The notes under the pieces are model-generated. The model was given only the letters and a program-made list of their open reading frames with translations, made no database searches and was not told the origin of the DNA. The position numbers were made by a program, and so were the translations under genes. From positions 1 to 54,245 of the IMG/VR virus record IMGVR_UViG_3300002852_000041: a stretch of 54,245 nt of DNA. The stretch is one strand, 5' to 3'. This document shows, one piece after another, positions 1-18,130 of this stretch (positions within the stretch are counted from its first letter, which is position 1; every line of letters starts with the position of its first letter). The stretch comes from a virus (taxonomy: Duplodnaviria > Caudoviricetes).

Positions 1-312
1 TCAAGAGATTGAGACGCTTTTACTTTTCACTGAAAAATGTGTCCCCTGGCGTTTAGGGGACAGTTGAGGGACACTTTTTCGGGACAAGTCTTGACCATCT
101 TCTAGTCCGGCAAGGTAAGCGTTTTCCAGATATAGACTCTCGGATAGACCGATCTGTCTTTCGTACTCCAAAAATAATAAGCGATGGGGGCCAAGTTGCT
201 TCATTATTTTACGCCCGAGCTCAATTATCTTATCTGCACGTCTTGTGTATTCTTCATTTTTCCGGGTGTTCTTGTATGCAGCCCCATATATCCGCTTTTC
301 TGTATCAGTCAT
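1..312 (-). CDS. Hypothetical helical protein coupled to the upstream HTH gene
   Basis: ATG at 312 with AAGGAGG RBS, overlapping the stop of 305..514; C-terminal AYLAGLEDG motif. Confidence 0.6.
   Translation of the reverse strand: MTDTEKRIYGAAYKNTRKNEEYTRRADKIIELGRKIMKQLGPHRLLFLEYERQIGLSESLYLENAYLAGLEDGQDLSRKSVPQLSPKRQGTHFSVKSKSVSIS
40..86. repeat. GGGACA repeats, candidate integrase arm-type sites near the left att
   Basis: GGGACA at 57-62, 68-73, 81-86; inverted repeat TGTCCCCT(40-47)/AGGGGACA(55-62); located at the prophage end opposite the integrase. Confidence 0.45.
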
Positions 313-514
313 TACTACTTTGCCTCCTTTGTAGCCCATCTATGTCTGCCCCTAACTTTTCGACAATGATGGCCAAGGTCTTTTGACGGGGAACCCTCCT
401 ACCCTGTTCAATGGCCGCAATATACCCACTACTTAGTCCTGTGACTTTGGCCAACTCCGCCTGAGTTAAGCCTTTTTCCCTCCGGAGTCTTGCAATTGCG
501 ATAGCTATATCCAA
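305..514 (-). CDS. XRE/Cro-C1 HTH regulator
   Basis: IARLRREKGLTQAELAKVTGLSSGYIAAIEQGRR is a canonical HTH_3 pattern. Confidence 0.9.
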   Translation of the reverse strand: MDIAIAIARLRREKGLTQAELAKVTGLSSGYIAAIEQGRRVPRQKTLAIIVEKLGADIDGLQRRQSSND

Positions 515-548
515 TTATTGAGCTCCCTTTCAGTATATAACAAAGATG

Positions 549-649
549 TGTCGAAACTGGGAAAATTAATGCTCTAGAATTGTACATCTCTTACATCAAT
601 ATACGCTAATTTTATACAATATATATGGGTACACATATATATTTCGACA
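549..649. promoter_or_regulatory. Two Spo0A boxes in the divergent HTH intergenic region
   Basis: TGTCGAA at 549-555 and TTCGACA at 643-649 match the 0A-box consensus TGNCGAA; ATATATATG...CATATATAT palindrome between them. Confidence 0.55.
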
Positions 650-688
650 TATATAGGAAATCAGACATACTGAAAGAACCTATTTTTC

Positions 689-877
689 ATGAAGAATAGG
701 TTAAGGGAAATCATGTTAATCAAAAGGGTCACACAGGAACAGCTCTCAAAGAGAACCGGCATCCCGCAAAGCGATATAAGCAAAATAATCAACGGGGAAA
801 AAGAGATATATCTCAGCACTGCAAAGCGGATAGCCAGAGCTTTGGGGAAAACAGTTGATTATATTTGGCCCGATTAA
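689..877 (+). CDS. XRE HTH regulator
   Basis: NRLREIMLIKRVTQEQLSKRTGIPQSDISKIING...IARALGKTVDYIW. Confidence 0.88.
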   Translation: MKNRLREIMLIKRVTQEQLSKRTGIPQSDISKIINGEKEIYLSTAKRIARALGKTVDYIWPD

Positions 878-994
878 AAACAAAAAGCCCCCGCCATAAT
901 CGGCAAGGACTGCTACACATTTATAAAATACTTAACGGAAAATCCAACGAAACTTTAAAAACCCCGCCAAAAAGAAAAACCCGGTTTCCCGGGG

Positions 995-1444
995 TTATTT
1001 AGTTACCTTCTCTAATATTGTGGCTGTTATTATAGGCATCCCTGTTTTTGAATCCTTGCCGGAAAAAGTACCGTATATTTTTACTTCTTCACCCGCTTTG
1101 ATGTCAAAAATCCGGGATAAGTTTTTTACTGAATACATACCATTGCCATTGCCTTCCTTCGTGCTAAGGGTAAACTCCCATCCATCTGGAGCAGGGGCGC
1201 TAATCCCTCCTTTTGCGTATACCCTTTTATCTTTATTTTTCTCGGGTGAGCTGTTCAGTTCAATAAAATTAGCTTGCGCTGCTTCTTTTTTTAGTTTAGC
1301 ATCTAGTTCCGTCTGGGTTGGCTTGCTTGCCTCAGATGTCGTGGTCGGCTTCGGCTGTGGTGCGGGCGTTTGCTGAGCAACCGGAGTATTCCCGCAGGCT
1401 GTTAAAGCCAAAAGCAAAATAAGCATTAATACCATTCTTTTCAT
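995..1444 (-). CDS. Lipoprotein with a probable OB-fold domain (moron)
   Basis: Signal peptide with lipobox LTA-C, Pro/Thr linker, C-terminal GEEVKIYGTFSG; strong RBS. Confidence 0.8.
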   Translation of the reverse strand: MKRMVLMLILLLALTACGNTPVAQQTPAPQPKPTTTSEASKPTQTELDAKLKKEAAQANFIELNSSPEKNKDKRVYAKGGISAPAPDGWEFTLSTKEGNGNGMYSVKNLSRIFDIKAGEEVKIYGTFSGKDSKTGMPIITATILEKVTK

Positions 1445-1622
1445 AGTAAAACCTCCTTCTTTTATAGTATTTTAATATCATACTCAATTAGTTAATATCC
1501 TCCATTAGTATGGTTTTTTCTCATCCCTCCCCCGCCCTCTCGCACTCTCCCTTCCCTCTCCCTTATCTTCGGTAATAAACCTTTAAAAATAAAGGCTTTC
1601 ACCCCCTCCTCCATGCGTTAGG

Positions 1623-1668
1623 GCGTACCAACCCACGTATGAACGCACGTACCAACTGGCGTATGGAC
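1623..1668. repeat. 24-bp tandem repeat with CGTA at 12-bp period
   Basis: CGTACCAAC at 1624 and 1648, CGTATG at 1636 and 1660; directly downstream of the FtsK-relaxase operon. Confidence 0.7.
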
Positions 1669-1669
1669 T

Positions 1670-2029
1670 TTAACCAAGAACCTGCAGGAAGGATTTAAGG
1701 GCCTTTACTACAGTGCCGATCACCAGCACAAAGCAGACAAGCGTGGTCACCATCTTGGCCTGGCTGCCCAACTGGGCATTACCCACGGCACTGGCTACCT
1801 GATTAATCCCCCACCCTACTACGGCCAGAAGAAGAATCTGCATCAGCACAAACCCAGCCCCGGAAGGGCCGAAGGTTGCCCCGGCCACAGCCCCCAGGGA
1901 GAATTTTTCCGGCACAACTGCAGCCGCAAACATCGGCATCCTGGCGATGGCAGCCGTCCAGAACTCCCGGTCCAGGGACTCAACCCTGCCGCACTTAACC
2001 CGCCACGCTATTATTACCGGCTTTCTCAT
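1670..2029 (-). CDS. Small multi-TM membrane protein, C-terminal half SpoIIIAC/AD-like
   Basis: Hydrophobic helices QILLLAVVGWGINQVASAVG and MVTTLVCFVLVIGTVV; overlaps the relaxase stop. Confidence 0.65.
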   Translation of the reverse strand: MRKPVIIAWRVKCGRVESLDREFWTAAIARMPMFAAAVVPEKFSLGAVAGATFGPSGAGFVLMQILLLAVVGWGINQVASAVGNAQLGSQAKMVTTLVCFVLVIGTVVKALKSFLQVLG

Positions 2030-2681
2030 TCAAACATTCCCCTTTCAATTTTTCTAAAAGACATATTTGAAACTCCAGGCCTGCGGCATTTTCTTTTTCC
2101 ACCAAGCCCCGAATTATTCTTTCCCGGGGGGCCGCCGTGGTCACCGTCAGGATCCCCGGGAACCTGTCGGCCAGGTCCGCCCACCACCAGCCAGCATATT
2201 TCTCTGAGTCATAAAGGCTGTTATATTTGGCGACCTTATCAAAAAGGTTCCCTGACTCAGCCCGGTCCAACTCCACAAACCAGAACCGGAGTTTTCCCGT
2301 CACAGTATTCCGGATTGCACAGAACGCGTCAGCCTGCAGCACCCCGTAATCTTGTTCAGTGTCCCAGCGGTAAACCTCTTCCCAGGACTTCACGCTCCGG
2401 ACCATCCAGACATACACCCAGTTCAGAGCCACCAGGTGATCCATCCGGCCATGTTTCTTCCCGGTGAAATAGATATAGGGGGATTCCGGCGCCGCCCTCC
2501 ACCGCTTCAACCTCCCCCGGTCAAAAAGCACCTTCAGCCGCTCCTGGGCTTTCCTTCGGCCATGTTTCTGGCCGCTGAATATCAACACACTGACCTGCTC
2601 CGTATCTAAGGCCTGAAGCTTTTCTATGAGGCGGCATATCTCATTATCGCGGTGGTAGCCTCTTAACTGATTGGGTGACAT
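1995..2681 (-). CDS. Replication-relaxation (Replic_Relax) family protein
   Basis: N-terminal wHTH-like RDNEICRLIEKLQALDTEQV, conserved H (MDHLVAL), ADAF...FVELDR and K..KY PD-(D/E)xK-like motifs; coupled to FtsK. Confidence 0.8.
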   Translation of the reverse strand: MSPNQLRGYHRDNEICRLIEKLQALDTEQVSVLIFSGQKHGRRKAQERLKVLFDRGRLKRWRAAPESPYIYFTGKKHGRMDHLVALNWVYVWMVRSVKSWEEVYRWDTEQDYGVLQADAFCAIRNTVTGKLRFWFVELDRAESGNLFDKVAKYNSLYDSEKYAGWWWADLADRFPGILTVTTAAPRERIIRGLVEKENAAGLEFQICLLEKLKGECLNEKAGNNSVAG

Positions 2682-3750
2682 CCCAGACGTTCACCTCCTG
2701 ACCTTGCAAAAGTTTCTTGGCCTGCCGCAGGGGTAAGTGCATGGACTGAATCTCCTTCACGGTCACGCCGAACTTGTAGATGCCCCGGCCTTTTACCTCC
2801 GGCAGCTGGGCGGCCAGGGGGCAGTTCTCCCCTAAAATCATTCTGCTGCTGACCTCATCCGGCATGAGGTAGCACAGACGGGCTGCAAACATATCCCGGG
2901 TGTCATCCTTAAACAGCTGCACCCTTTTGCTGGGCCTCTGGGTGGCGGCCACCACACTGATACCGGTGGCCCTGGCCAGCCTCACAATCCGGTCAACAAG
3001 CCGGATTGTTTCCGGGTCGCTTATCTCGGCCACTTCGTCAATAACCAGGACGATAAAAGGCATATCCCCCTTGTAGTCCTGAATCTTCTCCACCCCGGCA
3101 GATTCCAGTATGTCAATCCTGCGTTCCATTTCTCGGTTCAAAGCACCGACGAGCTGCACGGCTTCTTTTTCATTTTTTGCTAGAGCCGTGTGGTTTTTCA
3201 GATACGAAAACTGCAGCCGCTTAAGGTCGATGATGGCCACCTTCGCCACCGGCAGCAGGGAGTGGATCAGTCCCAGTAGGTAATTAGATTTCCCGAATCC
3301 GGTCACCCCGGCCACCAGTAAGTGTGGAGCCTCGGCCAGGTCCAGGACCTCCAGAGCAGGGCTGTAGCCGATGGGCACCGGCAGGGCCATGCTCTGGTAG
3401 GGGGCAGAGTCCCACTGATAAGGATAGTGGTTTTCCAGGTGCCCAGCCCGGATATTGATATGGCAGTACCCGGCTACCTTCCGGATCTCGACAAACCCCC
3501 GGCAGGCATCCGCAAAATACTCTTGCCTGTTAAGCACCTCCCGGAAAGACACACCCGGGGGCAGGGTAAAAATCAGGTGCCAGCCCCCAGGGGTTTTCTT
3601 TTTGTGGGTCAGCTGGGGCCGTGGCTTGGGCTCCGGCCAGAGTGCGTCAACGGTATCGAGGACAGCTGCCGGTATCTCCTGCCCGGGGCGATGCCGCCAC
3701 AGGTCCCGGAGGGATTTACCAACATCACTTAGATAGGCTTCCTCTTGCAA
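2644..3750 (-). CDS. FtsK/SpoIIIE-family ATPase lacking an N-terminal TM domain
   Basis: PHLLVAGVTGFGKS Walker A, IIDLK, VLVIDE Walker B, ATQRP, GRGI; TTG start at 3750 with AAGGTGG RBS. Confidence 0.92.
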   Translation of the reverse strand: MQEEAYLSDVGKSLRDLWRHRPGQEIPAAVLDTVDALWPEPKPRPQLTHKKKTPGGWHLIFTLPPGVSFREVLNRQEYFADACRGFVEIRKVAGYCHINIRAGHLENHYPYQWDSAPYQSMALPVPIGYSPALEVLDLAEAPHLLVAGVTGFGKSNYLLGLIHSLLPVAKVAIIDLKRLQFSYLKNHTALAKNEKEAVQLVGALNREMERRIDILESAGVEKIQDYKGDMPFIVLVIDEVAEISDPETIRLVDRIVRLARATGISVVAATQRPSKRVQLFKDDTRDMFAARLCYLMPDEVSSRMILGENCPLAAQLPEVKGRGIYKFGVTVKEIQSMHLPLRQAKKLLQGQEVNVWDVTQSVKRLPPR

Positions 3751-3782
3751 TAGACCACCTTCTTTGTTGGATTTTGTAATGC

Positions 3783-3813
3783 AATATATGCCGAATGTTT
3801 TGTCCATTATCAC
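3783..3813 (-). promoter_or_regulatory. Putative sigmaE-type sporulation promoter of the FtsK operon
   Basis: Minus strand GTGATAAT-15 bp-CATATATT, i.e. ATA-17-CATAnnnT, about 30 bp upstream of the start codon. Confidence 0.45.
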
Positions 3814-3854
3814 TTTTGGATTGTGGTAATTTAGGGCAAAATAAAAAGCCCCGA

Positions 3855-4052
3855 CTATTCATCAAGGCTCCACAGCTCCTCCACTTTTCTATTTACAGCC
3901 CGGGCTATCTTCAGAGCCAGCAACACCCCCGGACCAGAACCTTTCTTTATTTTAGTAAAGCTGTTTTCGTTTATCCCGCACTCCTGGGCCACTTGTCTCT
4001 GTGTCTTATTAACCTCGGCCAGGGCCACCCGGAAAACATGCTCATTAAACAT
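3855..4052 (-). CDS. XRE HTH regulator
   Basis: KTQRQVAQECGINENSFTKIKKG.PGVLLALKIARAVNRKVEELW. Confidence 0.85.
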   Translation of the reverse strand: MFNEHVFRVALAEVNKTQRQVAQECGINENSFTKIKKGSGPGVLLALKIARAVNRKVEELWSLDE

Positions 4053-4081
4053 ACCATCACCTAATGGTATGTTCTACCATG

Positions 4082-4465
4082 TTAGCTTATTTCCTCCCAC
4101 TTACCAAATACCCGCCCACAGGAACACCCATAAGTCACTACATCACCGTATTCGCCCTCCAGAATACTGAGGATTGATACCCGGCCCCCTTCTATCTCCG
4201 GAGTATAGATATGTGCCCCACAGTCCGGGCATGTGCCGGTCTGGGTGGTCTGCCTGGGCAGGAGCCTCACGCCGCCCTGGTTCCCCCGACAGACTATGCA
4301 CTGCCGCAAAGAGAGCTTTGAGACGTTGTATTTATCAAGCATTACCTTCAGCACCCCGACCATCACATTCCGGGCCGCGGGGTTCCTGGAGAGCAGGAAA
4401 CACTCCAGCGCTTTCTCCATAACAAAAAGGTCATCGGCCTTCGGGAAATCGTATATTTCACACAT
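4082..4465 (-). CDS. Hypothetical protein with C-terminal Zn-ribbon
   Basis: CPDC and CSCG motifs; AGGAGG RBS. Confidence 0.7.
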   Translation of the reverse strand: MCEIYDFPKADDLFVMEKALECFLLSRNPAARNVMVGVLKVMLDKYNVSKLSLRQCIVCRGNQGGVRLLPRQTTQTGTCPDCGAHIYTPEIEGGRVSILSILEGEYGDVVTYGCSCGRVFGKWEEIS

Positions 4466-4571
4466 GGTATATTCCTCCTGTTAACCTATTTACCGCCAGT
4501 GTATTCAGCTATTCCCCAATGTGTTCTATTTTTGTCGGTAAATAAATATATTTTTATCGGGGTGATGTACG

Positions 4572-4868
4572 GTGATAGGTGAACGCATAAAGGCTATGTT
4601 GGAGTCCAGGGGAATGTCGCAGCGGGAACTGGCCCGGAGGATAGGGAAGCACCCATCAGAAATTAATGAGATAGTACAGGGGAAAAGAGATCCCGGGGTG
4701 GCATTGGTGGAAAAGATTGCGGAAGGACTGGGAGTGTCGCCGGCTGAACTGGTGGCAGAGCCGGAGAAGGAATTGAGTGTATGCCAACTCCTGGAGAGGG
4801 AGATCGGAGAGGTGGCCATGTGGGAATTGTTGGAGTGGGTAAGGAAAATAAAACGGGCTGGACCTTAA
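4572..4868 (+). CDS. XRE HTH regulator
   Basis: IGERIKAMLESRGMSQRELARRIGKHPSEINEIVQGKRDPG. Confidence 0.88.
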   Translation: MIGERIKAMLESRGMSQRELARRIGKHPSEINEIVQGKRDPGVALVEKIAEGLGVSPAELVAEPEKELSVCQLLEREIGEVAMWELLEWVRKIKRAGP

Positions 4869-5101
4869 TCCCATACCCTTTCCAGAACCCAGCCGGCTTT
4901 ATCCTTCACCAGGTCATAAAGGCCCCCAGAACGAGCCTTCACCCGGAAGGTAGGCAGGTTGCTGTAGTGGTCGTAATAGTCACGTTTTACGAAAACCCTC
5001 TCGCAGCTGGCCACCTGCAACCACCGTCCCCGCCACTGGAATAAGACAAGGTCCTCTCCGTCAAGGCGAACCTCGACGGGCTGCTTATAAAGTTTGGACA
5101 T
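4865..5101 (-). CDS. DUF6504-like small protein (78 aa)
   Basis: Start ATG 5101 after GGGGGTG; F.WRGRW..V...FRV.....YDL....GW.LERVWD pattern. Confidence 0.75.
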   Translation of the reverse strand: MSKLYKQPVEVRLDGEDLVLFQWRGRWLQVASCERVFVKRDYYDHYSNLPTFRVKARSGGLYDLVKDKAGWVLERVWD

Positions 5102-5123
5102 AAAAACACCCCCGGTATCCCCG

Positions 5124-5152
5124 ATTATAGAACGGGTGTTTGTGGATATCAA
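5124..5152 (-). promoter_or_regulatory. SigmaA promoter with a LexA (Cheo) box in the spacer
   Basis: TTGATA(5152-5147)-17-TATAAT(5129-5124); GAAC-GGGT-GTTT at 5130-5141. Confidence 0.7.
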
Positions 5153-5161
5153 GATTATATC

Positions 5162-5210
5162 TTGGCATATTTTTTGGCATATTTTTTTGGCATATTTTTT
5201 GGCATATTTT
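5162..5210 (+). repeat. Four tandem TGGCATATTTT(T) repeats
   Basis: GGCATA at 5164, 5176, 5189, 5201, separated by T tracts. Confidence 0.9.
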
Positions 5211-5211
5211 C

Positions 5212-5240
5212 TTGACGTCGTTTCATGGTTCTGATACAAT
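5212..5240 (+). promoter_or_regulatory. SigmaA promoter of the two-gene XRE-peptidase locus
   Basis: TTGACG-17-TACAAT with extended -10 TG. Confidence 0.7.
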
Positions 5241-5273
5241 CTTCTTGGATACCAGAAATAGGAGGATTCGCCA

Positions 5274-5861
5274 TTGACTCTCTCTTTAAATGAGGCTAAA
5301 AGGATTTTGGACCCAATACTTCCTAAATTATCGAAAAGCATCAATGCAGCTATTAACGATTATAAAAGGAATATTTTGCGTCTCGAATACTCTCGTAGAA
5401 CAAGGGCAAGCATAATTAATGACCTGATGTGGCGTTATGCACAAGAAGCATTAATTGATGCTCCGGGAATCTTTTGGAGGCGTAAGGGAAATAGTCATTA
5501 TCTTATTATTGAAGATAAGTTTAAGCTTAAATTCAAGATGTTAACAAAAAACCTAAGGAGCATGAACATCCCTACACAACAAGCTCTTGATTTTGTTTAT
5601 CAAGAAAATGGGCAACTTGATTTTCCTGATAAACCCGCGCCTGTCACAAATATATTAGCAGGATATAAATGGAATGACCTACAAACTGATCACGATGGAG
5701 TATATATTGTCTGCCCATTCGGGACTCAGAATCTGTGGGCACTTGAGATAACCCAGGAAAAATCTAAAGAGGCAGAAATTGTTCCTATTCCCACTACGGA
5801 ACGTAAACGCGTTGCGGTTAGGAAGGTTGAGGAAGATGTCAAAAATAAAGAATCTAAATGA
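5274..5861 (+). CDS. Hypothetical protein, putative toxin/effector partner of the XRE-ImmA protein
   Basis: TTG start with AGGAGG; AT-rich; overlaps the downstream gene; KFKML..NIPTQQ..LAGY motifs. Confidence 0.7.
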   Translation: MTLSLNEAKRILDPILPKLSKSINAAINDYKRNILRLEYSRRTRASIINDLMWRYAQEALIDAPGIFWRRKGNSHYLIIEDKFKLKFKMLTKNLRSMNIPTQQALDFVYQENGQLDFPDKPAPVTNILAGYKWNDLQTDHDGVYIVCPFGTQNLWALEITQEKSKEAEIVPIPTTERKRVAVRKVEEDVKNKESK

Positions 5862-6921
5862 TAATGCTGTTTTTAATGCAATGATGCTAATCATCGCCCG
5901 AGAATCCCGTGGTTTAACCCAAAAAGAGCTATCAGAAAAAATAGGTGTGACTCAAGGTTGGCTTTCAAGAGTAGAGGGAGGCTTACGGTCTATTTCAGAT
6001 GATGTCTTAGATAAGATATCAAGTATTCTTGATTATCCTATCGGCTTTTTCTATCAGACAGAAAGAATATATGGTTTAGGTGCAAGTGAGCTGTTTAATA
6101 GGAAACGCCAAGACATACCAGTAAAAAAACTTAATACTATATACTCTCAAATAAATATCAGAATAATACATTTGTCAAGAATGCTGCGTGGTGTAGATAT
6201 TGGAGAGGTTAATTTTCCACACTTTGAATTGGCAGATTTTAATGGTAACATTGGAAATATTACTCAAGCAGTTAGAGCGATGTGGCATATCCCACAGGGA
6301 CCGATAAATAATCTTACAGAAGTAATAGAGAATAATGGTGGGATAGTAATCCCCTTTGATTTTGGAACCACCCGTATAGATGCAACAAGCTTTTGTATAC
6401 CCGGATTACCTCCTTTATTTTTCGTTAACATAAATATTCCTGGTGATAGATTGCGTTTCACGCTTTGCCACGAATTAGGCCATACAATAATGCACCAAAG
6501 GGATCTAAATCCTGATATGGAACGTCAGGCCGATACTTTTGCTGCTAATTTTTTGATGCCTGAAAAAGAAATTCGTCCATATTTAAGAGATCTTTCATTA
6601 TCAAGACTGGCAGAATTAAAATTATACTGGAAGGTTTCCATGGCATCGATGTTAACAACTGCATCTAATATTGGAACGATAACTCCAGAAGAATCAAAAT
6701 TATTATGGAAAAAAATGAGTATAAGAGGTTACAGAACTCACGAACCATTAGAATATGACATACCAGTAGAAATACCTACTTTATATCAAGAAATTATTGA
6801 TGTTTACCGTAATGAAATGGGATATAGTTCATCAGAATTGAGTGATATGCTTAATCTTAACGAACATGAAGCAAGACATATGTACTTCAATAGTCGTAGG
6901 CAATTAAGAGTGATTAAATAA
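5836..6921 (+). CDS. XRE HTH + ImmA/IrrE (M78) Zn-metallopeptidase fusion
   Basis: ARESRGLTQKELSEKIG HTH; DRLRFTLCHELGH and E.QADTFAANFLMP; ATG at 5836. Confidence 0.92.
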   Translation: MSKIKNLNDNAVFNAMMLIIARESRGLTQKELSEKIGVTQGWLSRVEGGLRSISDDVLDKISSILDYPIGFFYQTERIYGLGASELFNRKRQDIPVKKLNTIYSQINIRIIHLSRMLRGVDIGEVNFPHFELADFNGNIGNITQAVRAMWHIPQGPINNLTEVIENNGGIVIPFDFGTTRIDATSFCIPGLPPLFFVNINIPGDRLRFTLCHELGHTIMHQRDLNPDMERQADTFAANFLMPEKEIRPYLRDLSLSRLAELKLYWKVSMASMLTTASNIGTITPEESKLLWKKMSIRGYRTHEPLEYDIPVEIPTLYQEIIDVYRNEMGYSSSELSDMLNLNEHEARHMYFNSRRQLRVIK

Positions 6922-11865: not shown

Positions 11866-14562
11866 TTACACCACCTCACTATAGTCGATTTCCATGACTG
11901 TGATGGCCACCGTTTTAGCCCCATAAATCTCATCCTTTACTGGCAAAGAGGAGATAATGCCAAATACTTTCCGGCTGGCGCCATCTCTGTAACATATTGT
12001 CCCCTTTAACTTGACCAGGGCATCCAGGGCCTCATAATCCCCGGACCCGTTGACACATAGCAGAGTGGCGCTGGGGTTTTCAGTTTCCGCTTCGCCCCAC
12101 CGGACGACCGGCCTTGCCCTCCCCGCAAACTGCAAAAACTCTGCCTCCGCCTGCCATCCATGGCCCCGTTCCTGACCGTCACGCTGATAATTATGCGCCG
12201 TCCCTGCCGGGCTGGCTACATCGTGGAGCCATATGCCGATCAGGGTTATGGACTCGCTCACCATGCCGCTGGTGCTGGATGTACCGTTGTCTGCATAGCT
12301 AACCACCCGGTAATCATAGGTAACGCCCGACTCCACTGTGTAGTCATCATATGTCCCATCATTGGCAAGGCCTATGACTATCCGGGTCCAGGTGCTTTCA
12401 CTGTGTTTTTTACGGTACAGGTCGTTACTGGTGACCGTTGGCTCTGTCCCTTGTGGCGCCGGGTTGTTAATTGCTATATTAATGTATCCGGCTTGGTCTG
12501 TCATGGTCAAAATAGCCAGTGCCGGGGGTGTATAACTTACAGTAACTGCCTTTGTTGCCCAGTCACCCCAAAGGGTAGTGCTGTCCTGATATTTGACTTT
12601 GAGGATGTAACTTGCCCCGTTAACCAGGTCAATGCCGCAGGTAACAGCCATATTTATGCTTACGACTGGTCCGGTATCCCACACCACATTGCTAAGGCTG
12701 TCCAGTACTTGCACCTGATAGGCCGTTTGGTCTATACTGGTCCATGAAATAACCGGCCTTGCCACGGGTACGGGGTCGGGGGGCGCGTCAATAGTCAGTG
12801 TGGATGGTGCATCCGCTGCAGTAAATACAGCCTGCTGGGACCATGGGGAGACAAGGCCACCCTTGTCATAGCACCTAACTTTCCAAGTAATATCACCCGC
12901 TGGGAATGTCCCTGAATTAATGTCTCTGTACTCATTGGCACTGACTGCGCCGTTTATCTCGTTCCACGTGGTCCCGGCGTCACTGCTCCAGTGCAGGTCA
13001 TATTTTGTTTGGTAATCGCCACTGTTCGGGTCGTTAAACTGCCAGGAAAGCCGATGGATAGTTGTCCGATCAATCATATCACTGGCGGGGTCTAAGTTGG
13101 TAGGGGCCTCCGGGGCTACGTTGTGCGTGACCGTGAAAACCCCGTCTGACTGGTCATATGCGCCATACCTGACACCGTCATAGGCCCGGATGCGGATCAG
13201 GCACTGGCTACCTTCCGTCACGCCGGAAAAGTCATGCTCGTATGATGTTGCCCCGGCTGTGGTCAGGGCCACAATATCAGTCCAGTTAGATCCATTATCC
13301 GGTGAATACTGAATGTGGTACTGTATAAGGTTCTGGGCTACCTCAGTTGATGTTGACGGGTTCCATGTAATTAAAAAGGTCGGGTCAATGTCTGTCTGAA
13401 TCGACTCCCCGCCGTTGGGATCTGTGAGTACCGGAACCGTAGGCGGGGTTGAATAAATCACAGATAAATAGGGCTTGTTTGAAGCGTCCTCTGAGTCGTT
13501 AAAAACAGCCGATTGAGATCCGACACAACCGTCACAAACAAGTTTCCATCCGTAGTTGTTTATAGCACCGCTAACCATTCTCTGGACACTGCTGGCTAAA
13601 TCTAGATATTCCCATCCAGTTGAAGATTCTATGTATTCGGTGTCAAGCTTTGTGCTGTCGTGTGATGGCGGTGGATAACTGGTCTCGTCCCACGTTGATG
13701 TGATTTCATAGGCAGCGACATCAGGCCCAGCCCAAGAATTGTTTACATAGAGGTATAGCTTAGCACTTGATATATCGGCATCTAAAGGTATACTCGAAAG
13801 GTCCAACCGTATGCCTGACGTTTCAAATGAACCCGAAATCCCAAGGCTATCATACACAGTCTCAGCATATGTGTTCCATTTGGCATCAATAACCGCAGTG
13901 TTGCCAGGGTTCAGTGTGACGGTAGTAGGGTCAACCCTCACCGGATAAACCGCCTCATCTGCCAGCCACCTGACATCAGGGGTAAAAACTATAGCCTGCC
14001 CGTCATAATCAACGCTGACCTTACCCTGCTGCCCTGCCCGGTCCACCATGTAGGGGGCCGGGATTTTGCCAACCTCCTGGCCCTCGGCATAGAATACCGC
14101 CTCGTTGTTACCAATCCATACACTGCAGCCTGTCAACTCCACAGGAAAAGCAAAGCTCTCCGGGTGTCCCGGAGCTTTTAAAAGGATATCGCTCTTTATG
14201 CCCCGGTCAGTGTTGACATACTCCAGGTCAGTATTTTCCCACGCCTCGTTTATGGTGGCCCTGTTCGCGCTAATACCCGGCGCTCCCGGCAGGGTATAGT
14301 CAATATAAACCTGCTTTGCAAAGCCAAAACGGAGTCTGTTGTTATCGTAGAATCTCAGGTGGTGCTGTTGTTTTTTTGCCTTTTGCCCAAAGCCCGCTTC
14401 AAGCTCAAAAGCCGTGTCAACGGTCTGGAGTTCTCCGGTGTCCGGGTCCTCATAGTGCTGGTCGTGGATGGTAAGGACGGCCATAATCTTGCCGTTATCC
14501 AGCCGGTAGTGCTTTGCCTTTTTAGTCCGTAGACTCGTTAGTTCTTCAAGGATATTAGCCAA
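11866..14562 (-). CDS. Large tail protein with DNRLRE-like and Fn3/Ig repeats, Dit-like C-terminus
   Basis: RLDLSSIP.DADISSAKLYLY...AAYEITSTWDET; several W...Y...VR.YD Fn3-type units; follows the TMP. Confidence 0.7.
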   Translation of the reverse strand: MANILEELTSLRTKKAKHYRLDNGKIMAVLTIHDQHYEDPDTGELQTVDTAFELEAGFGQKAKKQQHHLRFYDNNRLRFGFAKQVYIDYTLPGAPGISANRATINEAWENTDLEYVNTDRGIKSDILLKAPGHPESFAFPVELTGCSVWIGNNEAVFYAEGQEVGKIPAPYMVDRAGQQGKVSVDYDGQAIVFTPDVRWLADEAVYPVRVDPTTVTLNPGNTAVIDAKWNTYAETVYDSLGISGSFETSGIRLDLSSIPLDADISSAKLYLYVNNSWAGPDVAAYEITSTWDETSYPPPSHDSTKLDTEYIESSTGWEYLDLASSVQRMVSGAINNYGWKLVCDGCVGSQSAVFNDSEDASNKPYLSVIYSTPPTVPVLTDPNGGESIQTDIDPTFLITWNPSTSTEVAQNLIQYHIQYSPDNGSNWTDIVALTTAGATSYEHDFSGVTEGSQCLIRIRAYDGVRYGAYDQSDGVFTVTHNVAPEAPTNLDPASDMIDRTTIHRLSWQFNDPNSGDYQTKYDLHWSSDAGTTWNEINGAVSANEYRDINSGTFPAGDITWKVRCYDKGGLVSPWSQQAVFTAADAPSTLTIDAPPDPVPVARPVISWTSIDQTAYQVQVLDSLSNVVWDTGPVVSINMAVTCGIDLVNGASYILKVKYQDSTTLWGDWATKAVTVSYTPPALAILTMTDQAGYINIAINNPAPQGTEPTVTSNDLYRKKHSESTWTRIVIGLANDGTYDDYTVESGVTYDYRVVSYADNGTSSTSGMVSESITLIGIWLHDVASPAGTAHNYQRDGQERGHGWQAEAEFLQFAGRARPVVRWGEAETENPSATLLCVNGSGDYEALDALVKLKGTICYRDGASRKVFGIISSLPVKDEIYGAKTVAITVMEIDYSEVV

Positions 14563-17500
14563 CCGATACCACCACCTTCCCCATGCCCCGGGCTGTCTGT
14601 TTTATCCGGGAGAAAAAGTCCACAACATCACGCATTTCCTTTATGTCCCTGGCCGGGATTTCAACTTTTTCAATGTAGTAGTTGTCACCGCCAAATCTTC
14701 CCGCTTTTGAGAGTACGGCTTCAAATGTATCCTCCATCATCTGAACGGGGGTTATGATCTCCGGTCGAGCCGCAGCCGTTTCAGCTACCTCAAAAAGCCC
14801 CAATGTCGGCTTTGTGTATACACCACCAGTTGCATGGCCATGAACCACGTCCTCCCAGTTATCCCAGCCACCGGCTTCGTCTACGCCTACTTGCCCGTCA
14901 CCATTGGCGTCCAGGTTGCCATTACCAGGCACAACTCCGCCAGGGGGTACTCCATCGGGCCAACCATCGTTATCATTGTCCGATAAATCCGGGCTGTGGC
15001 CTCCGCCACCACCATCGTAATCGCCGGGAACTATCCATCCTTCCGGGATGTCAGCAGGCCAATCGACATAGACGGGGATTACTACAGGATTTGCGGCTGC
15101 CTGTACCTTTAAGCCGTCAATCTCGGCCAAAACATCCGCACAGAGTTGGATGATTGTTTGCAGGACGGTTTGCATGGCTGAGGTAACTGTTCCGCCTCCA
15201 GCCTCGACACCACCAGCGAGACCTTCCGCAACTCCTTCGCCAAACCGATGCATAACCTGAGATGGGGAATGTATTTCAAGGGTATTCTGCACTGCCCCAA
15301 TTGCATTATTAGCAAGATTAGCCGCTGAACCACTGACCAGCCCAGCGCCTGCATCCATGCCCTCGGAAAAGCCCTCCGCTGTCTCATAACCCTTAACTAC
15401 AAATCCCGGCCTGGCATAGCCTAATTTAGCCATTACTGTGGTAAGCCAGGCATCAAAACTCCTGATATTATCATCAAAACCAGACTTTATTGCGTTGAAC
15501 ATAGACGAAAACATTGATTTAATTTCACCGGTTTCCCAGTCAACAGCATTGATATGTTCACTGGCTTGGGCCTGAGCCTCACCCACTACTTTTAAATGCA
15601 TGTCCTGGGCCGCTTTTACCGTGTTATCCTTGACCGTAATAGCGGCAGCTATGAGTTTTTGAGCCTCGTCAGCACTTATGGCTCCTCTTTCATCGCGCTG
15701 CCTGATAATCTCCGCTATCGTTCTGTTGGCCGTTTCCTCGGCGGCTCTTATGGTCTCGTCCTTTATTTTTATACTGTTTGCCACAACCGCAGCGGCTTCC
15801 TGAGCAGTTATTTCTTCATGCTGCTGGGCCATGCGCTCAAGAATGATCTTTGACTCTACTTCACCCTGAGACAGTGCCCGTATACCTTCATTGACCATGG
15901 CCTGCTGGATTGCCACAATATCATTCTTTTCCTGTTCGGTTAAGGCGCGTCTTTCGCTGGCCGCAGCTTCAAGGATTTGCTTTATAGCTGCTTCACTGTT
16001 CTGTGTGGCCGAGATTTTAGCCTGGCCGGTCTCCTGTATTTTAGCCAGTATCTCAGCTTCATTCTGCTGAGTGAGAGCCCCACTCTCGGCAAAAAACTGG
16101 CGCATGGAGGCCAGGGATTCCTGGTTTTGCTGCTGCATAGCCGCTACGACCTGGTCCTTCATGCCGGTAAAGTTCTTTACAATACCATCAGCAGCCTCTT
16201 TTGACACAGCTTGGCCTGACCAGTTAAGCTGATTCAGCGCAGTAGTAGCTTGAGTATTCAAATCGAGAAAGGCCGTAACAGCTTTCTGTGTTGCTTCGCT
16301 TACCTTGCCTCCAAACAGATCAACCTGGACCGCATCCTCCGATAGCTTATAGGCAATCAATCCCAATGCTGCAACAGCAATACCGACAGGTCCAGTAAGA
16401 GCAGAAAGGGCTGTTCCCAAAGCACCAAAAGATATTCCGGACGTAGCCGCAGCTGCCCCTGCAGTCGTGGCAGCCCCTACCGACAGACCGAGCGCTCCGG
16501 TTAATGTTGTAAAGCCAGCTGTAATGGTGGGCAAAGAACCTATCAAAAGTAGTATTGGACCACTTATTAATGCAAATCCAGCCGCTACTGCACTGGCAAC
16601 TGCAGCCGTTGTTTTCATCGACTCAGGTAATTGATTGAATCTGCTTATAACCTCAGATATGCCATCAGCAACTACCCTAATAGCCGGGGCCAATGCGGAC
16701 CCTATACTGATAGCCGCACCTTCCAGGGAGGACGAAAGCTGATCCATACTACCCTTGAGGTTATCCTGCATTATCTTTGCTGTTTCAGCTGCGGCCCCTC
16801 CGCTGTTTTTTAACTTGCTTGTATAGTTTTCAAAAGCGACAGCGCCCTGCTCAATTAGGACCATCATCCCACTAACCGCTTCAGTCCCAAATATGGTGGC
16901 CAGGGTCTGAGCTTTCTGTGCTTCGGTCATGCCGGAAAGCTTGGTTTCAAACTGCCCAATGATGTCGCCCATGGGCCTCATCTTGCCACCGCTGTCGGTA
17001 ATTGAAATACCAAGGCTATCAAGAGCCGCCGCCGCTTCTTTTGGCGGATCAATCAGGCGGAGCATAGCAGACCTTAGAGTGGTGCCGCTTTGCTCCCCCT
17101 TAATCCCCGCGTTACCCATTTCCACCATTGCGGCGCTGACTTCTTCCAGGGATATCCCCAAGGATGCGGCAACAGGGGCCGCGTATTTAAATCCATAGGC
17201 CATATCCTGTACGCCCAGGGCTGACATATTCGCAGCAGCAGCCAAGACATCGGCTACATGGCCGGCCTGGGATGCCTCAAGGCCGAAGGTGTTAAGGGCA
17301 CTCCCCATAGTCTCGGCAACGAGGGCCATGTCCTCTCCGGACGCAGCAGCCGCAGCCAGTACCCCCGGCATTGCGGCAACAATATCATTGGAATTCATAC
17401 CAGCAGCGGCTAATTCTTGCATGCCTCCTGCAGCTTGGGATGCCGAAAACTGTGTAGTACTGCCCAGTTCCAAGGCCTTCTGCCGAAGGGCATCAAACTC

Positions 17501-18091
17501 GTCACCCACTGCGCCGGAGAGGGCTGCAACTTTAGACATTTGGGCATCAAAATCCATGGCGATTTTTGCGGTCCCACCCAGAGCAAGGGCAAGGCCTGCG
17601 CCAAAGGCCATAAGAGATGTGCCAATTCCTTGTAGTTTGGGTCCAATTTGTTCAAGACTTGTTCCTGTCCTATTGGCAGAGTTTGCTTGTTCTTCCAATT
17701 GGTTATTAACTCGGCGCAGTTCACCCTCCATCTGCGCCTCGGCTTCTCTTGCCCTAGCCAATCGGACTTCAAGACGTTGGGTAGCGTCAGCATCTGCCCC
17801 TCTTACGGCGACACTTCTTTCATACGCCGTATTTAAGGCGGCAAGATAATTCCTTTGTTCCGCTAATTTTCGACTTAAGAAATCTTGCTTAAGACCTAAT
17901 CTTTCCGTGGCGGATGCGTTATCGTCAAGCCTCGCTGTAGCCGCTCCGAATTCGGCCTGCAAAATCTGCATTTGCCTACTGGTTTCTCTGCCAACTTGAG
18001 ATAGATTCTGCCTCGCCTCGTTGAGGGCTTCTGTGAGCCCCGTAGTATCTAAGTCGAGCCGGACATTTAATTGACCGACATCAGACGACAT
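14555..18091 (-). CDS. Tape measure protein (TP901-family core)
   Basis: FDAQMSKVAA..ALELGSTTQFSASQAA, GIKGEQSGTTLR, MQDNLKG; ATG 18091 after AGGTGG. Confidence 0.95.
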   Translation of the reverse strand: MSSDVGQLNVRLDLDTTGLTEALNEARQNLSQVGRETSRQMQILQAEFGAATARLDDNASATERLGLKQDFLSRKLAEQRNYLAALNTAYERSVAVRGADADATQRLEVRLARAREAEAQMEGELRRVNNQLEEQANSANRTGTSLEQIGPKLQGIGTSLMAFGAGLALALGGTAKIAMDFDAQMSKVAALSGAVGDEFDALRQKALELGSTTQFSASQAAGGMQELAAAGMNSNDIVAAMPGVLAAAAASGEDMALVAETMGSALNTFGLEASQAGHVADVLAAAANMSALGVQDMAYGFKYAAPVAASLGISLEEVSAAMVEMGNAGIKGEQSGTTLRSAMLRLIDPPKEAAAALDSLGISITDSGGKMRPMGDIIGQFETKLSGMTEAQKAQTLATIFGTEAVSGMMVLIEQGAVAFENYTSKLKNSGGAAAETAKIMQDNLKGSMDQLSSSLEGAAISIGSALAPAIRVVADGISEVISRFNQLPESMKTTAAVASAVAAGFALISGPILLLIGSLPTITAGFTTLTGALGLSVGAATTAGAAAATSGISFGALGTALSALTGPVGIAVAALGLIAYKLSEDAVQVDLFGGKVSEATQKAVTAFLDLNTQATTALNQLNWSGQAVSKEAADGIVKNFTGMKDQVVAAMQQQNQESLASMRQFFAESGALTQQNEAEILAKIQETGQAKISATQNSEAAIKQILEAAASERRALTEQEKNDIVAIQQAMVNEGIRALSQGEVESKIILERMAQQHEEITAQEAAAVVANSIKIKDETIRAAEETANRTIAEIIRQRDERGAISADEAQKLIAAAITVKDNTVKAAQDMHLKVVGEAQAQASEHINAVDWETGEIKSMFSSMFNAIKSGFDDNIRSFDAWLTTVMAKLGYARPGFVVKGYETAEGFSEGMDAGAGLVSGSAANLANNAIGAVQNTLEIHSPSQVMHRFGEGVAEGLAGGVEAGGGTVTSAMQTVLQTIIQLCADVLAEIDGLKVQAAANPVVIPVYVDWPADIPEGWIVPGDYDGGGGGHSPDLSDNDNDGWPDGVPPGGVVPGNGNLDANGDGQVGVDEAGGWDNWEDVVHGHATGGVYTKPTLGLFEVAETAAARPEIITPVQMMEDTFEAVLSKAGRFGGDNYYIEKVEIPARDIKEMRDVVDFFSRIKQTARGMGKVVVSVG

Positions 18092-18130
18092 CTGTAACCA
18101 CCTGCCTTTAGGCATAGCAAAAGCCCTGGC

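What the first reader, a model, noticed from the sequence alone, without database searches (positions are those of the whole stretch)
1623..4052. Candidate sporulation-coupled DNA translocation module: FtsK/SpoIIIE ATPase + relaxase-like nuclease + SpoIIIAC-like membrane protein
Seen: three overlapping minus-strand genes (soluble FtsK ATPase, Replic_Relax-type protein, small multi-TM protein). Upstream are an HTH gene and a sigmaE-like ATA-17-CATATATT motif; downstream is a periodic repeat; no mating-pair genes are present. Known: FtsK + replication-relaxation pairs occur in Bacillus-group temperate phages without an established function, SpoIIIE pumps DNA across the sporulation septum, and SpoIIIAC is a sigmaE-controlled mother-cell membrane protein. 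Inference: a minimal nick-and-pump system, anchored by the membrane protein, that moves phage DNA into the forespore or across a septum.
Basis: partly seen in the sequence, partly recalled or inferred. Interest (0 to 1): 0.8.

Follow-up and report, generated by a model that had tools for sequence, protein, structure and literature searches.

The report
Phage DNA-pump cassette, sporulation-type promoter
A prophage in a spore-forming bacterium carries a small gene cassette, already described in Bacillus phages but never tested for function, that looks borrowed from bacterial conjugation (a DNA-cutting protein, a DNA pump, a membrane protein and a DNA repeat) and may be switched on during spore formation.

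Summary
Window 1624-4052 holds, on the minus strand, an XRE-type HTH gene, a TM-less FtsK-family ATPase whose model best matches the pCW3 coupling protein TcpA, a Replic_Relax (PF13814) protein that folds as winged helix plus PD-(D/E)XK nuclease, a 2-TM protein, and a 4 x 12-nt repeat array.

The cassette is not a separate element. It sits at the integrase-distal end of one ~54.4-kb prophage bounded by tRNA-Trp repeats.

The ATPase-nuclease-membrane-protein order recurs in 7 of 7 related loci fetched and in Bacillus/Geobacillus phages. It is the phage "DNA translocation operon" of Pathria et al. 2012, whose function is still untested. This scan has met it before on other DNA.

"SpoIIIAC-like" is not supported. 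The sigmaE-like motif is real. It lies between a terminator-like hairpin and the probable true start (TTG 3750). It is kept with a GGACA box in three related leaders and one Geobacillus phage leader, but not in all.

My reading is a nick-and-pump device acting on the phage's own DNA, probably during sporulation. Forespore delivery is plausible but unproven.

This is a new member of a known kind.

The parts
4572..4868 (+). Divergently transcribed XRE-family HTH regulator (98 aa). It is a candidate private repressor of the cassette's upstream unit.
   Evidence: Pfam HTH_3 9.8e-17. Divergent XRE genes stand at the same place in Geobacillus phage PK5.2 and phage Wbeta.
4082..4465 (-). 127-aa Cys-rich protein of unknown family, the first gene of the upstream unit.
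   Evidence: ORF. No Pfam, PHROG, NCBIfam or PADLOC hit. A 128-aa counterpart stands at the same place in L028.
3855..4052 (-). Small HTH protein (65 aa).
   Evidence: HTH_3 22.9 bits against a cut-off of 23, and HTH_26 19.8 bits. A 74-aa counterpart is present in L028.
3845..3871 (-). Terminator-like hairpin plus T-run. It overlaps the HTH stop codon and separates the HTH unit from the ATPase unit.
   Evidence: 11 pairs. The same element is seen in L028, L013, L014, L015 and L017.
3783..3813 (-). SigmaE-type promoter-like element. It reads GTGATAAT (3806-3813), then ATGGACAA box (3800-3807), then CATATATT (3783-3790).
   Evidence: Conserved blocks with a diverged spacer in L028 and L014. The composite motif occurs only 3 times in 394,278 nt scanned. 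The sigmaE and SpoIIID consensus letters are recalled, not read.
2644..3750 (-). TM-less FtsK/TcpA-type ATPase. It is 368 aa from the probable TTG start at 3750; the longest ORF runs to GTG 3813.
   Evidence: PF01580 69.7 bits. Walker A K175, Walker B D259/E260, Q292 and R343 are invariant in 8 of 8 sequences. Model pLDDT is 80.8, with residues 1-22 below 50. The top Foldseek hit is TcpA 6o1x, E 2.4e-22. The RBS plus TTG is shared with L028.
1995..2681 (-). Replic_Relax / MOB_C-type protein: an N-terminal winged helix (1-77) and a C-terminal PD-(D/E)XK-like nuclease domain.
   Evidence: PF13814 38.2 bits. Model pLDDT 92. Foldseek hits are HamA, NucS/EndoMS and restriction enzymes at E 4e-3 to 2e-2, prob 0.69-0.98 in the ten best rows, 0.94-0.98 for HamA 8vxy, EndoMS 5gkj, 2vld and PaqCI. 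VIA wHTH Z 8-9. E109, D118, E137, D139, D148 and K149 are invariant in 19 of 19 sequences.
1670..2029 (-). Small membrane protein (119 aa) with two hydrophobic helices and a conserved FGPxG motif before helix 1.
   Evidence: F53 is invariant in 13 sequences, and the N-terminal 50 residues are conserved among the 6 close relatives. 2-TM ORFs flank the pair in 7 of 7 loci.
1624..1668 (.). Iteron-like array. On the gene strand it has four 12-nt units: GTCCATACG, GTTGGTACG, GTTCATACG, GTTGGTACG. It starts 2 nt after the stop codon.
   Evidence: Comparable arrays stand at the same place in 8 of 10 loci examined.
1519..1570 (-). Conserved purine/G-rich block about 60 nt beyond the array, of unknown role.
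   Evidence: Aligned AGGGGTTAGGGGAG-type block in L014-L017. G-runs are present in L028 and L029. No Rfam family. Fold z-score is -1.62, not significant.

Best explanation
This is the accessory 'DNA translocation operon' of Bacillota phages, here in a prophage of a spore-forming relative of Peptococcaceae/Desulfotomaculum (named homologues).

Proposed mechanism:
1. The Replic_Relax protein binds the 12-nt array next to the operon with its winged helix.
2. It nicks or cuts there with its PD-(D/E)XK domain.
3. It hands the DNA to the TcpA/FtsK-type ATPase.
4. That ATPase has no membrane anchor of its own and works at the membrane with the co-encoded 2-TM protein.
5. Phage DNA is thereby pumped across a membrane.

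Timing and destination:
- The ATPase unit is insulated from upstream transcription by a terminator-like hairpin. It is preceded by a sigmaE-type promoter-like element with a GGACA box.
- I therefore think it is switched on in the sporulating mother cell.
- The most likely destination is the forespore, so that a phage genome caught in a doomed mother cell is carried into the spore.

Shown here: gene content, folds, intact catalytic residues, conserved synteny, the conserved array and the partly conserved promoter-like element.

Inferred: binding, nicking, membrane anchoring, timing and destination.

My odds:
- It is this known cassette: about 0.85.
- It acts on the phage's own DNA as a nick-and-pump device: about 0.6.
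- The whole statement, including sporulation timing and the forespore: about 0.35.
For: Identity of the parts:
- Pfam hits for the ATPase and the nuclease.
- wHTH + PD-(D/E)XK model with invariant E109, D118, E137, D139 and K149.
- The ATPase model best matches the pCW3 coupling protein TcpA (E 2.4e-22, 355 columns), then the FtsK motor. ATPase motifs are invariant in 8 of 8 sequences.

Conserved order:
- ATPase, then nuclease, then 2-TM protein(s) in 7 of 7 fetched loci. In L018 the 2-TM genes lie upstream.
- The same order occurs between the lysis and lysogeny genes of Bacillus phage PfEFR-4, Geobacillus phage PK5.2 and phage Wbeta.
- In 36 of 40 listed phage rows, the Replic_Relax match overlaps an FtsK-type feature.
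- hhalign links my clade to the Geobacillus phage protein, with the catalytic motifs aligned (prob 58%, E 9.8e-5).

Literature:
- Pathria 2012 (PMC3357382, passages) describes a relaxase related to CloDF13 MobC, a TM-less coupling ATPase and membrane anchors.
- Coluzzi 2017 equates PF13814 with MobC.

Cis site:
- Arrays stand directly after the last membrane-protein gene in 8 of 10 loci.

Timing:
- The promoter-like element occurs in 5 of 9 leaders.
- The composite -35/GGACA/-10 motif occurs 3 times in 394,278 nt, all in leaders, and again in phage PK5.2.
- A WWRRACAR box is present in 8 of 14 leaders against 1.88 expected.
- The host's own spoIIIAA leader carries CATATAAT.

Host range:
- The host has spoIIIAC/AD.
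- Named hosts of homologues are Desulfotomaculum-type bacteria.
- Of 105 phage records with the Bacillus-type protein, 97 are Bacillus, 6 Geobacillus and 2 Staphylococcus.
Against: - No transcript, nicking or localisation data exist for any member.
- The promoter-like element is missing from L016, L018 and L019, and degenerate in L013. It is also missing from the Novomoskovsk and Staphylococcus MVC leaders.
- My first strict pattern found it in 0 of 7 loci. The later patterns were defined after seeing the data, and several loci are related by descent.
- In Wbeta and PfEFR-4 the GGACA box sits 21 nt from the CATATACC element, not 9 nt.
- The sigmaE and SpoIIID consensus letters are recalled. 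Eichenberger 2004 gave me only lengths, spacing and the T/C discriminator.
- A review (PMC4113786, passage) states that in phage Fah the FtsK/SpoIIIE gene is a 'delayed' class gene of lytic infection. Expression is therefore not sporulation-only everywhere.
- An integrated prophage already reaches the forespore with the chromosome, so the benefit is unclear for a lysogen.
- Two Staphylococcus phage records carry the pair, one with a split ATPase gene.
- FtsK-like genes alone occur in 52 Mycobacterium phage records.
- Deletion in phage 0305phi8-36 gave no laboratory growth defect.
Confidence: 0.35

Rival explanations
1. Conjugation-type export to another cell. The cassette is a mobilisation module (MOB_C-type relaxase, TcpA-type coupling protein, oriT-like array). 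It would send the excised phage genome through a helper's type IV secretion system. Alternatively, it would act on its own like Streptomyces TraB/clt, or move DNA between touching cells in a biofilm as Pathria et al. proposed.
For: - The top structural match of the ATPase is the conjugative coupling protein TcpA.
- PF13814 is the CONJscan MobC family (passages).
- Pathria 2012 reports HHpred E 4.4e-22 between the phage relaxase family and CloDF13 MobC.
- The counterpart small protein in phage PK5.2 gives sub-cut-off T4SS_pilin (22.5 bits) and TrbC (21.2 bits) hits. It is annotated TrbC/VirB2 in phage Novomoskovsk.
- The repeat array beside the genes resembles an oriT or clt.
Against: - No VirB4-type ATPase reaches the cut-off in the complete host genome.
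- The three plasmid records with a relative are typed non-mobilizable.
- In streptococcal elements TcpA was never paired with MobC.
- The NCBIfam TraB score is 52.5 against a cut-off of 800.
- A mother-cell-type promoter is an odd choice for export to neighbours.
- The cassette also sits in virulent phages.
Confidence: 0.2
2. Plasmid-type maintenance. The Replic_Relax protein is a replication initiator or centromere-binding protein acting on the iterons. The FtsK-like ATPase would segregate circular phage DNA or resolve its dimers.
For: - The PHROG families hit are labelled 'replication initiation by nicking' and 'replication initiation protein'.
- Iteron-like repeats lie next to the genes.
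- Papers place the pair beside ParM, ParG or Xer genes in some Bacillus phages and phage-plasmids (PMC9658697, PMC7685451 and PMC11526630; passages).
- The three plasmid hits are 38-55 kb Clostridium records.
Against: - This phage is integrated. It has its own replication genes: a PriCT_2 + AAA_25 primase-helicase, a helicase and AAA_24.
- The cassette is the only large difference between two 96%-identical B. subtilis phages (PMC9476937, passage).
- It is dispensable in 0305phi8-36.
- A membrane protein is always co-encoded.
- The functional labels in PHROGs and GenBank are untested annotations.
Confidence: 0.2
3. Exclusion or defence. A membrane-associated ATPase and nuclease, expressed from the prophage, would intercept and cut incoming foreign DNA.
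For: - It lies in the accessory region between the lysis genes and the prophage end, beside an RmrA/ImmA-type regulator.
- The best Foldseek row of the nuclease domain is the Hachiman nuclease HamA (E 4.2e-3).
- The ATPase hits the PADLOC models mad8 and SspH.
- The cassette is present or absent between near-identical phages.
Against: - No PADLOC model matches the nuclease or the membrane protein, so no known system is recognised.
- A conserved repeat array on the element's own DNA, directly beside the genes, points to self DNA as the substrate.
- The cassette is also carried by virulent phages.
Confidence: 0.1

Closest known systems
Phage 'DNA translocation operon' (Pathria et al. 2012, PMC3357382): 0305phi8-36 orf200/201/203/207, SPO1 gp27.3/27.4, GBSV1, BV1, Gamma/Cherry/Fah/Wbeta. 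Also the FtsK + Replic_Relax + TrbC/VirB2 genes of Andromeda-like phages (PMC9658697).
   Same: - A relaxase-like wHTH nuclease next to a TM-less ATPase and small membrane proteins.
- The position between lysis and lysogeny genes in temperate members.
- Dispensability and unknown function.
   Different: - The host is a Peptococcaceae/Desulfotomaculum-type anaerobe.
- The protein is too diverged for tblastn to find any phage record (0 hits). It is linked only by Pfam and hhalign.
- In 0305phi8-36 the ATPase is AAA_10/VirD4-like rather than FtsK-like.
pCW3 TcpA and the TcpA-type coupling proteins of Firmicutes conjugative and mobilizable elements
   Same: Best structural match over the whole soluble protein (6o1x, E 2.4e-22, 355 columns, 22-23% identity). 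The gene lies directly upstream of the DNA-processing gene.
   Different: - No N-terminal membrane segments. That TcpA has them is recalled.
- No VirB4-type partner in the host genome.
- It is partnered with a MOB_C-type protein, a pairing not seen in 144 streptococcal elements.
MOB_C relaxases (CloDF13 MobC, pAD1 TraX) = Pfam Replic_Relax
   Same: A PF13814 hit over the cut-off, an HTH plus PD-(D/E)XK architecture and a conserved acidic/Lys motif.
   Different: - The known members work with VirD4-type coupling proteins on plasmids and IMEs.
- My direct comparison with a CloDF13 ORF found nothing, but I could not identify mobC in that record.
SpoIIIE/FtsK chromosome translocases
   Same: The motor-domain fold and motifs. 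The closest longer proteins are canonical FtsK, at 28-39% identity over about half the query in most rows (25-70% across the 40 rows).
   Different: No 4TM domain and no gamma (KOPS/SRS-reading) domain were detected. Sequence reading would have to come from the separate wHTH nuclease.
Streptomyces TraB with clt repeats
   Same: An FtsK-like pump plus a short direct-repeat array at the end of the operon. This comparison is recalled.
   Different: The NCBIfam TraB model scores 52.5 against a cut-off of 800. A nuclease partner is present here.

Membership tests
FtsK/SpoIIIE family (PF01580) | P-loop motor domain with Walker A, Walker B and arginine finger | tested here: met
   PF01580 scores 69.7 bits against a cut-off of 24. 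K175, D259/E260, Q292 and R343 are invariant in 8 of 8 sequences. FtsK motor structures score E about 2e-19.
FtsK/SpoIIIE family (canonical translocases) | N-terminal membrane domain and C-terminal gamma DNA-reading domain | tested here: not met
   No TM segment. No FtsK_4TM or FtsK_gamma hit at E <= 0.01. The canonical FtsK proteins found carry both.
TcpA-type conjugative coupling proteins | Fold of the TcpA soluble domain | tested here: met
   6o1x, 6o1w, 6o1y and 6o1z are ranks 1-6, at E 2.4e-22 to 2.5e-20 over 355-363 columns.
TcpA-type conjugative coupling proteins | Own membrane anchor and a partner T4SS (VirB4-type ATPase) | tested here: not met
   No TM segment. In the own genome, AAA_10 gives only two sub-cut-off matches, which are the cell's FtsK/SpoIIIE genes.
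Replic_Relax / MOB_C relaxases | PF13814 domain; HTH plus PD-(D/E)XK core with conserved acidic residues and Lys | tested here: met
   38.2 bits against a cut-off of 25.3. Folds. Invariant E109, D118, E137, D139 and K149.
Replic_Relax / MOB_C relaxases | Site-specific nicking at an oriT and transfer dependence | not testable with these tools
   Only a candidate site (1624-1668) is defined.
Replic_Relax / MOB_C relaxases | Direct similarity to CloDF13 MobC | tested here: inconclusive
   hhalign of A1 against one CloDF13 ORF gave prob 0.1%. The record's mob region is fragmented and mobC was not identified.
SpoIIIAC/SpoIIIAD (PF06686) | Match to the family model or to the host's own SpoIIIAC/AD | tested here: not met
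   No PF06686 hit. The genome-wide search finds only the three host copies on C26. hhalign probabilities are 0.2% and 1.6%. The Atlas cluster scores 0.81 with PF06686 on 14% of members, which is a lead only.
VirB2/TrbC/T4SS pilins | Match to PF04956 or PF18895 | tested here: inconclusive
   The window protein has no hit. The PK5.2 counterpart scores 22.5 and 21.2 bits, below the cut-offs. A4 against that protein gives prob 0.25%.
SigmaE-dependent (mother-cell) promoters | -35 and -10 blocks at the right spacing, conserved among relatives | tested here: inconclusive
   GTGATAAT-13-GGCATATATT fits the 8 / 12+-1 / 10 layout and the T discriminator given in PMC517825. It is conserved in L028 and L014. 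The loose form is present in 5 of 9 leaders and absent from 4. The consensus letters are recalled.
SigmaE-dependent (mother-cell) promoters | sigE-dependent transcription | not testable with these tools
   No RNA run was listed.
Known anti-phage systems (PADLOC) | System-specific models for all components | tested here: not met
   Only generic ATPase models (mad8, SspH, HerA) hit. Nothing hits the nuclease or the membrane protein.
Streptomyces TraB | NCBIfam NF041214 over the cut-off | tested here: not met
   52.5 bits against a cut-off of 800.

The most novel reading that the evidence does not exclude
The cassette is a virus-encoded spore-entry device. It would be transcribed by sigmaE RNA polymerase and tuned by SpoIIID in the mother cell. 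It would load at its own repeat array and pump the phage genome from the doomed mother cell into the forespore. It might do so by docking its hairpin membrane protein on the SpoIIIA-SpoIIQ channel. This would give a molecular basis for the long-known entrapment of phage genomes in spores. It would also be the first DNA cargo proposed for a conjugation-derived pump inside one sporangium.
Probability: 0.2. Interest if true: 0.85.

Novelty: new member of a known kind. Interest (0 to 1): 0.5.

Why it matters
Phages of spore-formers have long been known to get trapped in spores, and for most phages no phage-encoded mechanism has been shown. A conjugation-derived nick-and-pump cassette recurs in more than 100 Bacillus and Geobacillus phage records and in relatives of Desulfotomaculum. 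It is dispensable in the laboratory and may carry a mother-cell-type promoter. That makes it a concrete candidate that ordinary Bacillus subtilis genetics can test. Even if the destination is another cell, it would show phage genomes travelling without capsids. As annotation, it corrects the labels 'cell division protein' and 'replication initiation protein' commonly given to these genes.

Tried and rejected
Separate integrative element beside the prophage: rejected.
- The 28-nt 3' end of tRNA-Trp, which lies just left of the window, recurs only once, about 146 nt beyond the integrase gene that ends the window.
- It does not recur inside the window at up to 3 mismatches.

SpoIIIAC membership: rejected.

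Known RNA family in 1-5500: none. The only row, VrrA, scores 26.9 bits against a cut-off of 50.

Stable fold of the 3' region: z-score -1.62, not significant.

Membrane anchoring of the ATPase by the 2-TM protein:
- Complex prediction gave no verdict (score 0.00, controls not run). This is neither for nor against.
- Looking for a fused TM-ATPase form, the 'longer' search (645-2000 aa) returned only canonical FtsK. Forms of 400-645 aa were not examined.

Expression: no RNA holder was listed.

Other dead ends:
- tblastn with the window's Replic_Relax protein gave 0 phage records, 3 plasmid records and 0 viral contigs.
- The profile gave 0 PDB sequences.
- Comparison with CloDF13 failed because the record's mob genes are fragmented.
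- A second Replic_Relax gene in the host (C9:301161-301733) has no FtsK-like neighbour and gave no help.
- The strict sigmaE regex found 0 of 7 and was replaced by looser, post hoc patterns.

Literature searched:
- 5 papers; 9; 11; 0; 3.
- I read passages only, never whole texts, of PMC11526630, PMC3853050, PMC9476937, PMC5357655, PMC3424549, PMC9658697, PMC7685451, PMC3357382, PMC4113786, PMC7438776 and PMC517825.
- In PMC12991052 only a reference-list hit was seen.
- In these passages no functional assay of the cassette appears, beyond the deletion phenotype in PMC3357382.
- Subscription journals and supplements were not visible and may hold more, for example the Fah transcription study and the TraX study.

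Full report
WHERE IT LIES

The window is G000:C9:44221-98465. A tRNA-Trp gene ends 17 nt before the window. Its last 28 nt recur once, about 146 nt beyond the window's right end, just after a tyrosine-integrase gene at 53025-54245. They do not recur inside the window at up to 3 mismatches.

Between the two copies lie phage replication genes, a large terminase at 26571-28325 and a 1186-aa ORF at 14555-18115. I took that ORF for a tape-measure protein but did not test it. The whole window is therefore one ~54.4-kb prophage. The finding sits at its integrase-distal end, next to the tRNA. It is not a second element. G+C of 2001-4000 is 0.54 against 0.39-0.46 in neighbouring windows, as expected for an exchangeable cassette.

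THE GENES

All are on the minus strand.
- A 127-aa Cys-rich protein (4082-4465) and a 65-aa HTH protein (3855-4052) are followed by a terminator-like hairpin (3845-3871).
- The FtsK-family ATPase comes next (ORF 2644-3813). Its first 22 residues model below pLDDT 50. In the closest locus, L028, the gene starts at a TTG behind a GGAGGTG ribosome site that aligns with TTG 3750 here. I therefore take 2644-3750 (368 aa) as the gene.
- The ATPase has no membrane segment. Its Walker A, Walker B, Q and R residues are invariant in 8 of 8 sequences.
- Its AlphaFold model (pLDDT 80.8) matches the soluble domain of the pCW3 conjugative coupling protein TcpA best (E 2.4e-22, 355 columns). FtsK motors follow at about 2e-19, then EccC/EssC and HerA. 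No gamma domain is detected.
- The Replic_Relax protein (1995-2681) overlaps the ATPase gene by 38 nt. Its model (pLDDT 92) has a winged helix at 1-77 (VIA Z 8-9) and a C-terminal domain. Foldseek matches that domain only weakly, but consistently, to PD-(D/E)XK nucleases: HamA, NucS/EndoMS, MunI, PaqCI and Mus81 (E 4e-3 to 2e-2 for the ten best rows, which include one non-nuclease, AF2093; Mus81-Eme1 follows at 3.8e-2).
- In that protein E109, D118, E137, D139, D148 and K149 are invariant in 19 sequences. This agrees with Steczkiewicz 2012, who placed Replic_Relax in that superfamily fused to HTH domains (passages).
- The 119-aa protein (1670-2029) overlaps the nuclease gene by 35 nt and has two hydrophobic helices. 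The long N-terminus is conserved in its 5 close relatives.

CONSERVATION

- The subfamily is rare: 9 of 401 genomes sampled from the phylum, G000 included.
- I fetched 7 of the 8 other loci. The eighth, a 1,985-nt contig end, was left out.
- In 7 of 7 an FtsK-like ORF lies directly upstream of the Replic_Relax ORF, and one or two 2-TM ORFs flank the pair. In L018 they lie upstream.
- BLAST recognised the membrane protein in only 2 of 7, but an alignment of 13 sequences shares an FGPxG motif and F53.
- Neighbours are phage-like: serine recombinases in L015 and L018, and what I read from their ORF sizes and N-termini as lysis and tail genes in L017 (untested).
- The same order, between lysis and lysogeny genes, occurs in Bacillus phage PfEFR-4, Geobacillus phage PK5.2 and phage Wbeta.
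- A PK5.2 query finds 105 phage records: Bacillus 97, Geobacillus 6 and Staphylococcus 2. In 36 of the 40 rows listed, the match overlaps an FtsK-type feature.
- My clade is too diverged for tblastn. It is linked by Pfam and by hhalign, with the catalytic motifs aligned (prob 58%, E 9.8e-5).

CIS ELEMENTS

Two nt after the stop of the membrane-protein gene, four 12-nt units follow on the gene strand: GTCCATACG, GTTGGTACG, GTTCATACG, GTTGGTACG (1624-1668). The motif class occurs 11 times in the whole window.

Arrays of 3-6 related units (CATACG, CATTCG or GTACG cores, mostly at 11-12-nt spacing) stand at the same place in L013-L017, L028 and L029. With the window that makes 8 of 10 loci; L018 and L019 lack them. 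With one degenerate core, the best 60-nt windows hold 2-4 sites, with single-window Poisson tails of 1e-3 to 9e-7 in five loci. The core was chosen after seeing the data.

A G-rich block follows about 60 nt further in most loci. Its role is unknown, and I found no Rfam match or significant fold.

THE PROMOTER QUESTION

Alone it is unremarkable, and my strict pattern found it in 0 of 7 loci.
- Earlier notes of this scan made me look again.
- The window and L028 align as hairpin, GT(G/C)ATAAT, GGACAA, a diverged 9-nt spacer, CATATAT(T/C), RBS, TTG. L014 has TTATATT GGACAG N9 CATATGAA.
- A loose pattern hits the leader in 5 of 9 loci. In AT-rich control windows the rate is 77 of 843.
- The composite motif occurs 3 times in 394,278 nt, all in these leaders. 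It occurs again in the PK5.2 leader.
- A WWRRACAR box is present in 8 of 14 leaders against 1.88 expected. In Wbeta and PfEFR-4 it sits 21 nt from CATATACC.
- The layout fits the sigmaE description in Eichenberger 2004: blocks of 8 and 10 nt spaced 12+-1, with T rather than C at the discriminating -35 position (passages).
- The consensus letters, and the identification of GGACA with SpoIIID, are from my memory.
- The host's spoIIIAA leader carries CATATAAT.
- Against this reading, four related leaders and two phage leaders lack the element. A review also says the Fah gene is a delayed gene of lytic infection.

WHAT IT IS

It is the 'DNA translocation operon' that Pathria et al. (2012) defined in 0305phi8-36, SPO1, GBSV1, BV1 and the Gamma/Wbeta group. 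They described a relaxase related to CloDF13 MobC (HHpred 4.4e-22), a TM-less coupling ATPase and membrane anchors. Deletion gave no laboratory defect, and they proposed cell-to-cell spread (passages).
- Coluzzi 2017 equates PF13814 with CONJscan MobC. In streptococcal elements it was seen only with VirD4, never with TcpA.
- Two 96%-identical B. subtilis phages differ by a 2,525-bp, four-ORF version of the cassette.
- The host genome has no VirB4-type gene, but it does have spoIIIAC/AD.

MECHANISM AND ODDS

My reading is that the wHTH nuclease binds and nicks at the array and the TcpA-like pump, held at the membrane by the hairpin protein, moves phage DNA across a membrane. I think this probably happens in the sporulating mother cell and towards the forespore.
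- Known cassette: about 0.85.
- Self-DNA nick-and-pump device: about 0.6.
- Full sporulation/forespore statement: about 0.35.
- Rivals: export to another cell 0.2, plasmid-type maintenance 0.2, defence 0.1.
- The SpoIIIAC likeness failed its tests and survives only as an Atlas lead.

VERDICT

This is a new member of a known, functionally untested kind. The scan has met the cassette before on other DNA.

Noticed in passing
window 5160-5214: Tandem repeat TTGGCATATTTT x4 (TRF score 89-103). It lies in the divergent region between ORFs 4865-5344(-) and 5274-5861(+), and overlaps the best sigma70-like sites of the scan. It is possibly an operator array.
   Followed up: no
window 5779-6921 (+): A 380-aa HTH + ImmA/IrrE-type metalloprotease regulator. 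It hits PADLOC RmrA at 2.4e-59 and phrog_2439 at 3.3e-83. The upstream 195-aa ORF (5274-5861) has no family.
   Followed up: no
window 995-1444 (-): Lipoprotein-like 149-aa protein with a signal peptide and a Cys. It hits phrog_9170 at 1.5e-30. It lies between the cassette and the tRNA, with two more small HTH genes at 689-877(+) and 305-514(-).
   Followed up: no
G000:C9:301161-301733 (L023 9407-10357, minus strand): A second, longer Replic_Relax gene (316 aa, PF13814 59.5 bits) in the same genome. It has no FtsK-family neighbour and lies near SLH/Big_5 and Cu_amine_oxidN1 proteins.
   Followed up: partly
window 2644-2670 (C-terminus of the ATPase): A conserved C-terminal tail, KRLPPR-like (L386 invariant), ends the ATPase in 8 of 8 sequences. 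It lies in the overlap with the nuclease gene. It could be a docking peptide or a constraint from the overlapping frame.
   Followed up: no
L015 7433-8887; L018 10866-12296; L021 6127-7569: In relatives that use a serine recombinase, that gene lies directly after the cassette and converges on it. The array and G-rich block therefore lie next to the likely attP region.
   Followed up: no
window 35903-37180 (-) and L018 5259-6041: A PAPS_reduct-domain protein lies among the early genes of this prophage. A possibly similar ORF is present in L018 (judged by eye only).
   Followed up: no
L030 2278-3419 (Staphylococcus phage MVC_VPHSA2): One of only two non-Bacillus/Geobacillus phage records with the pair has its FtsK-like gene annotated in two pieces.
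   Followed up: partly
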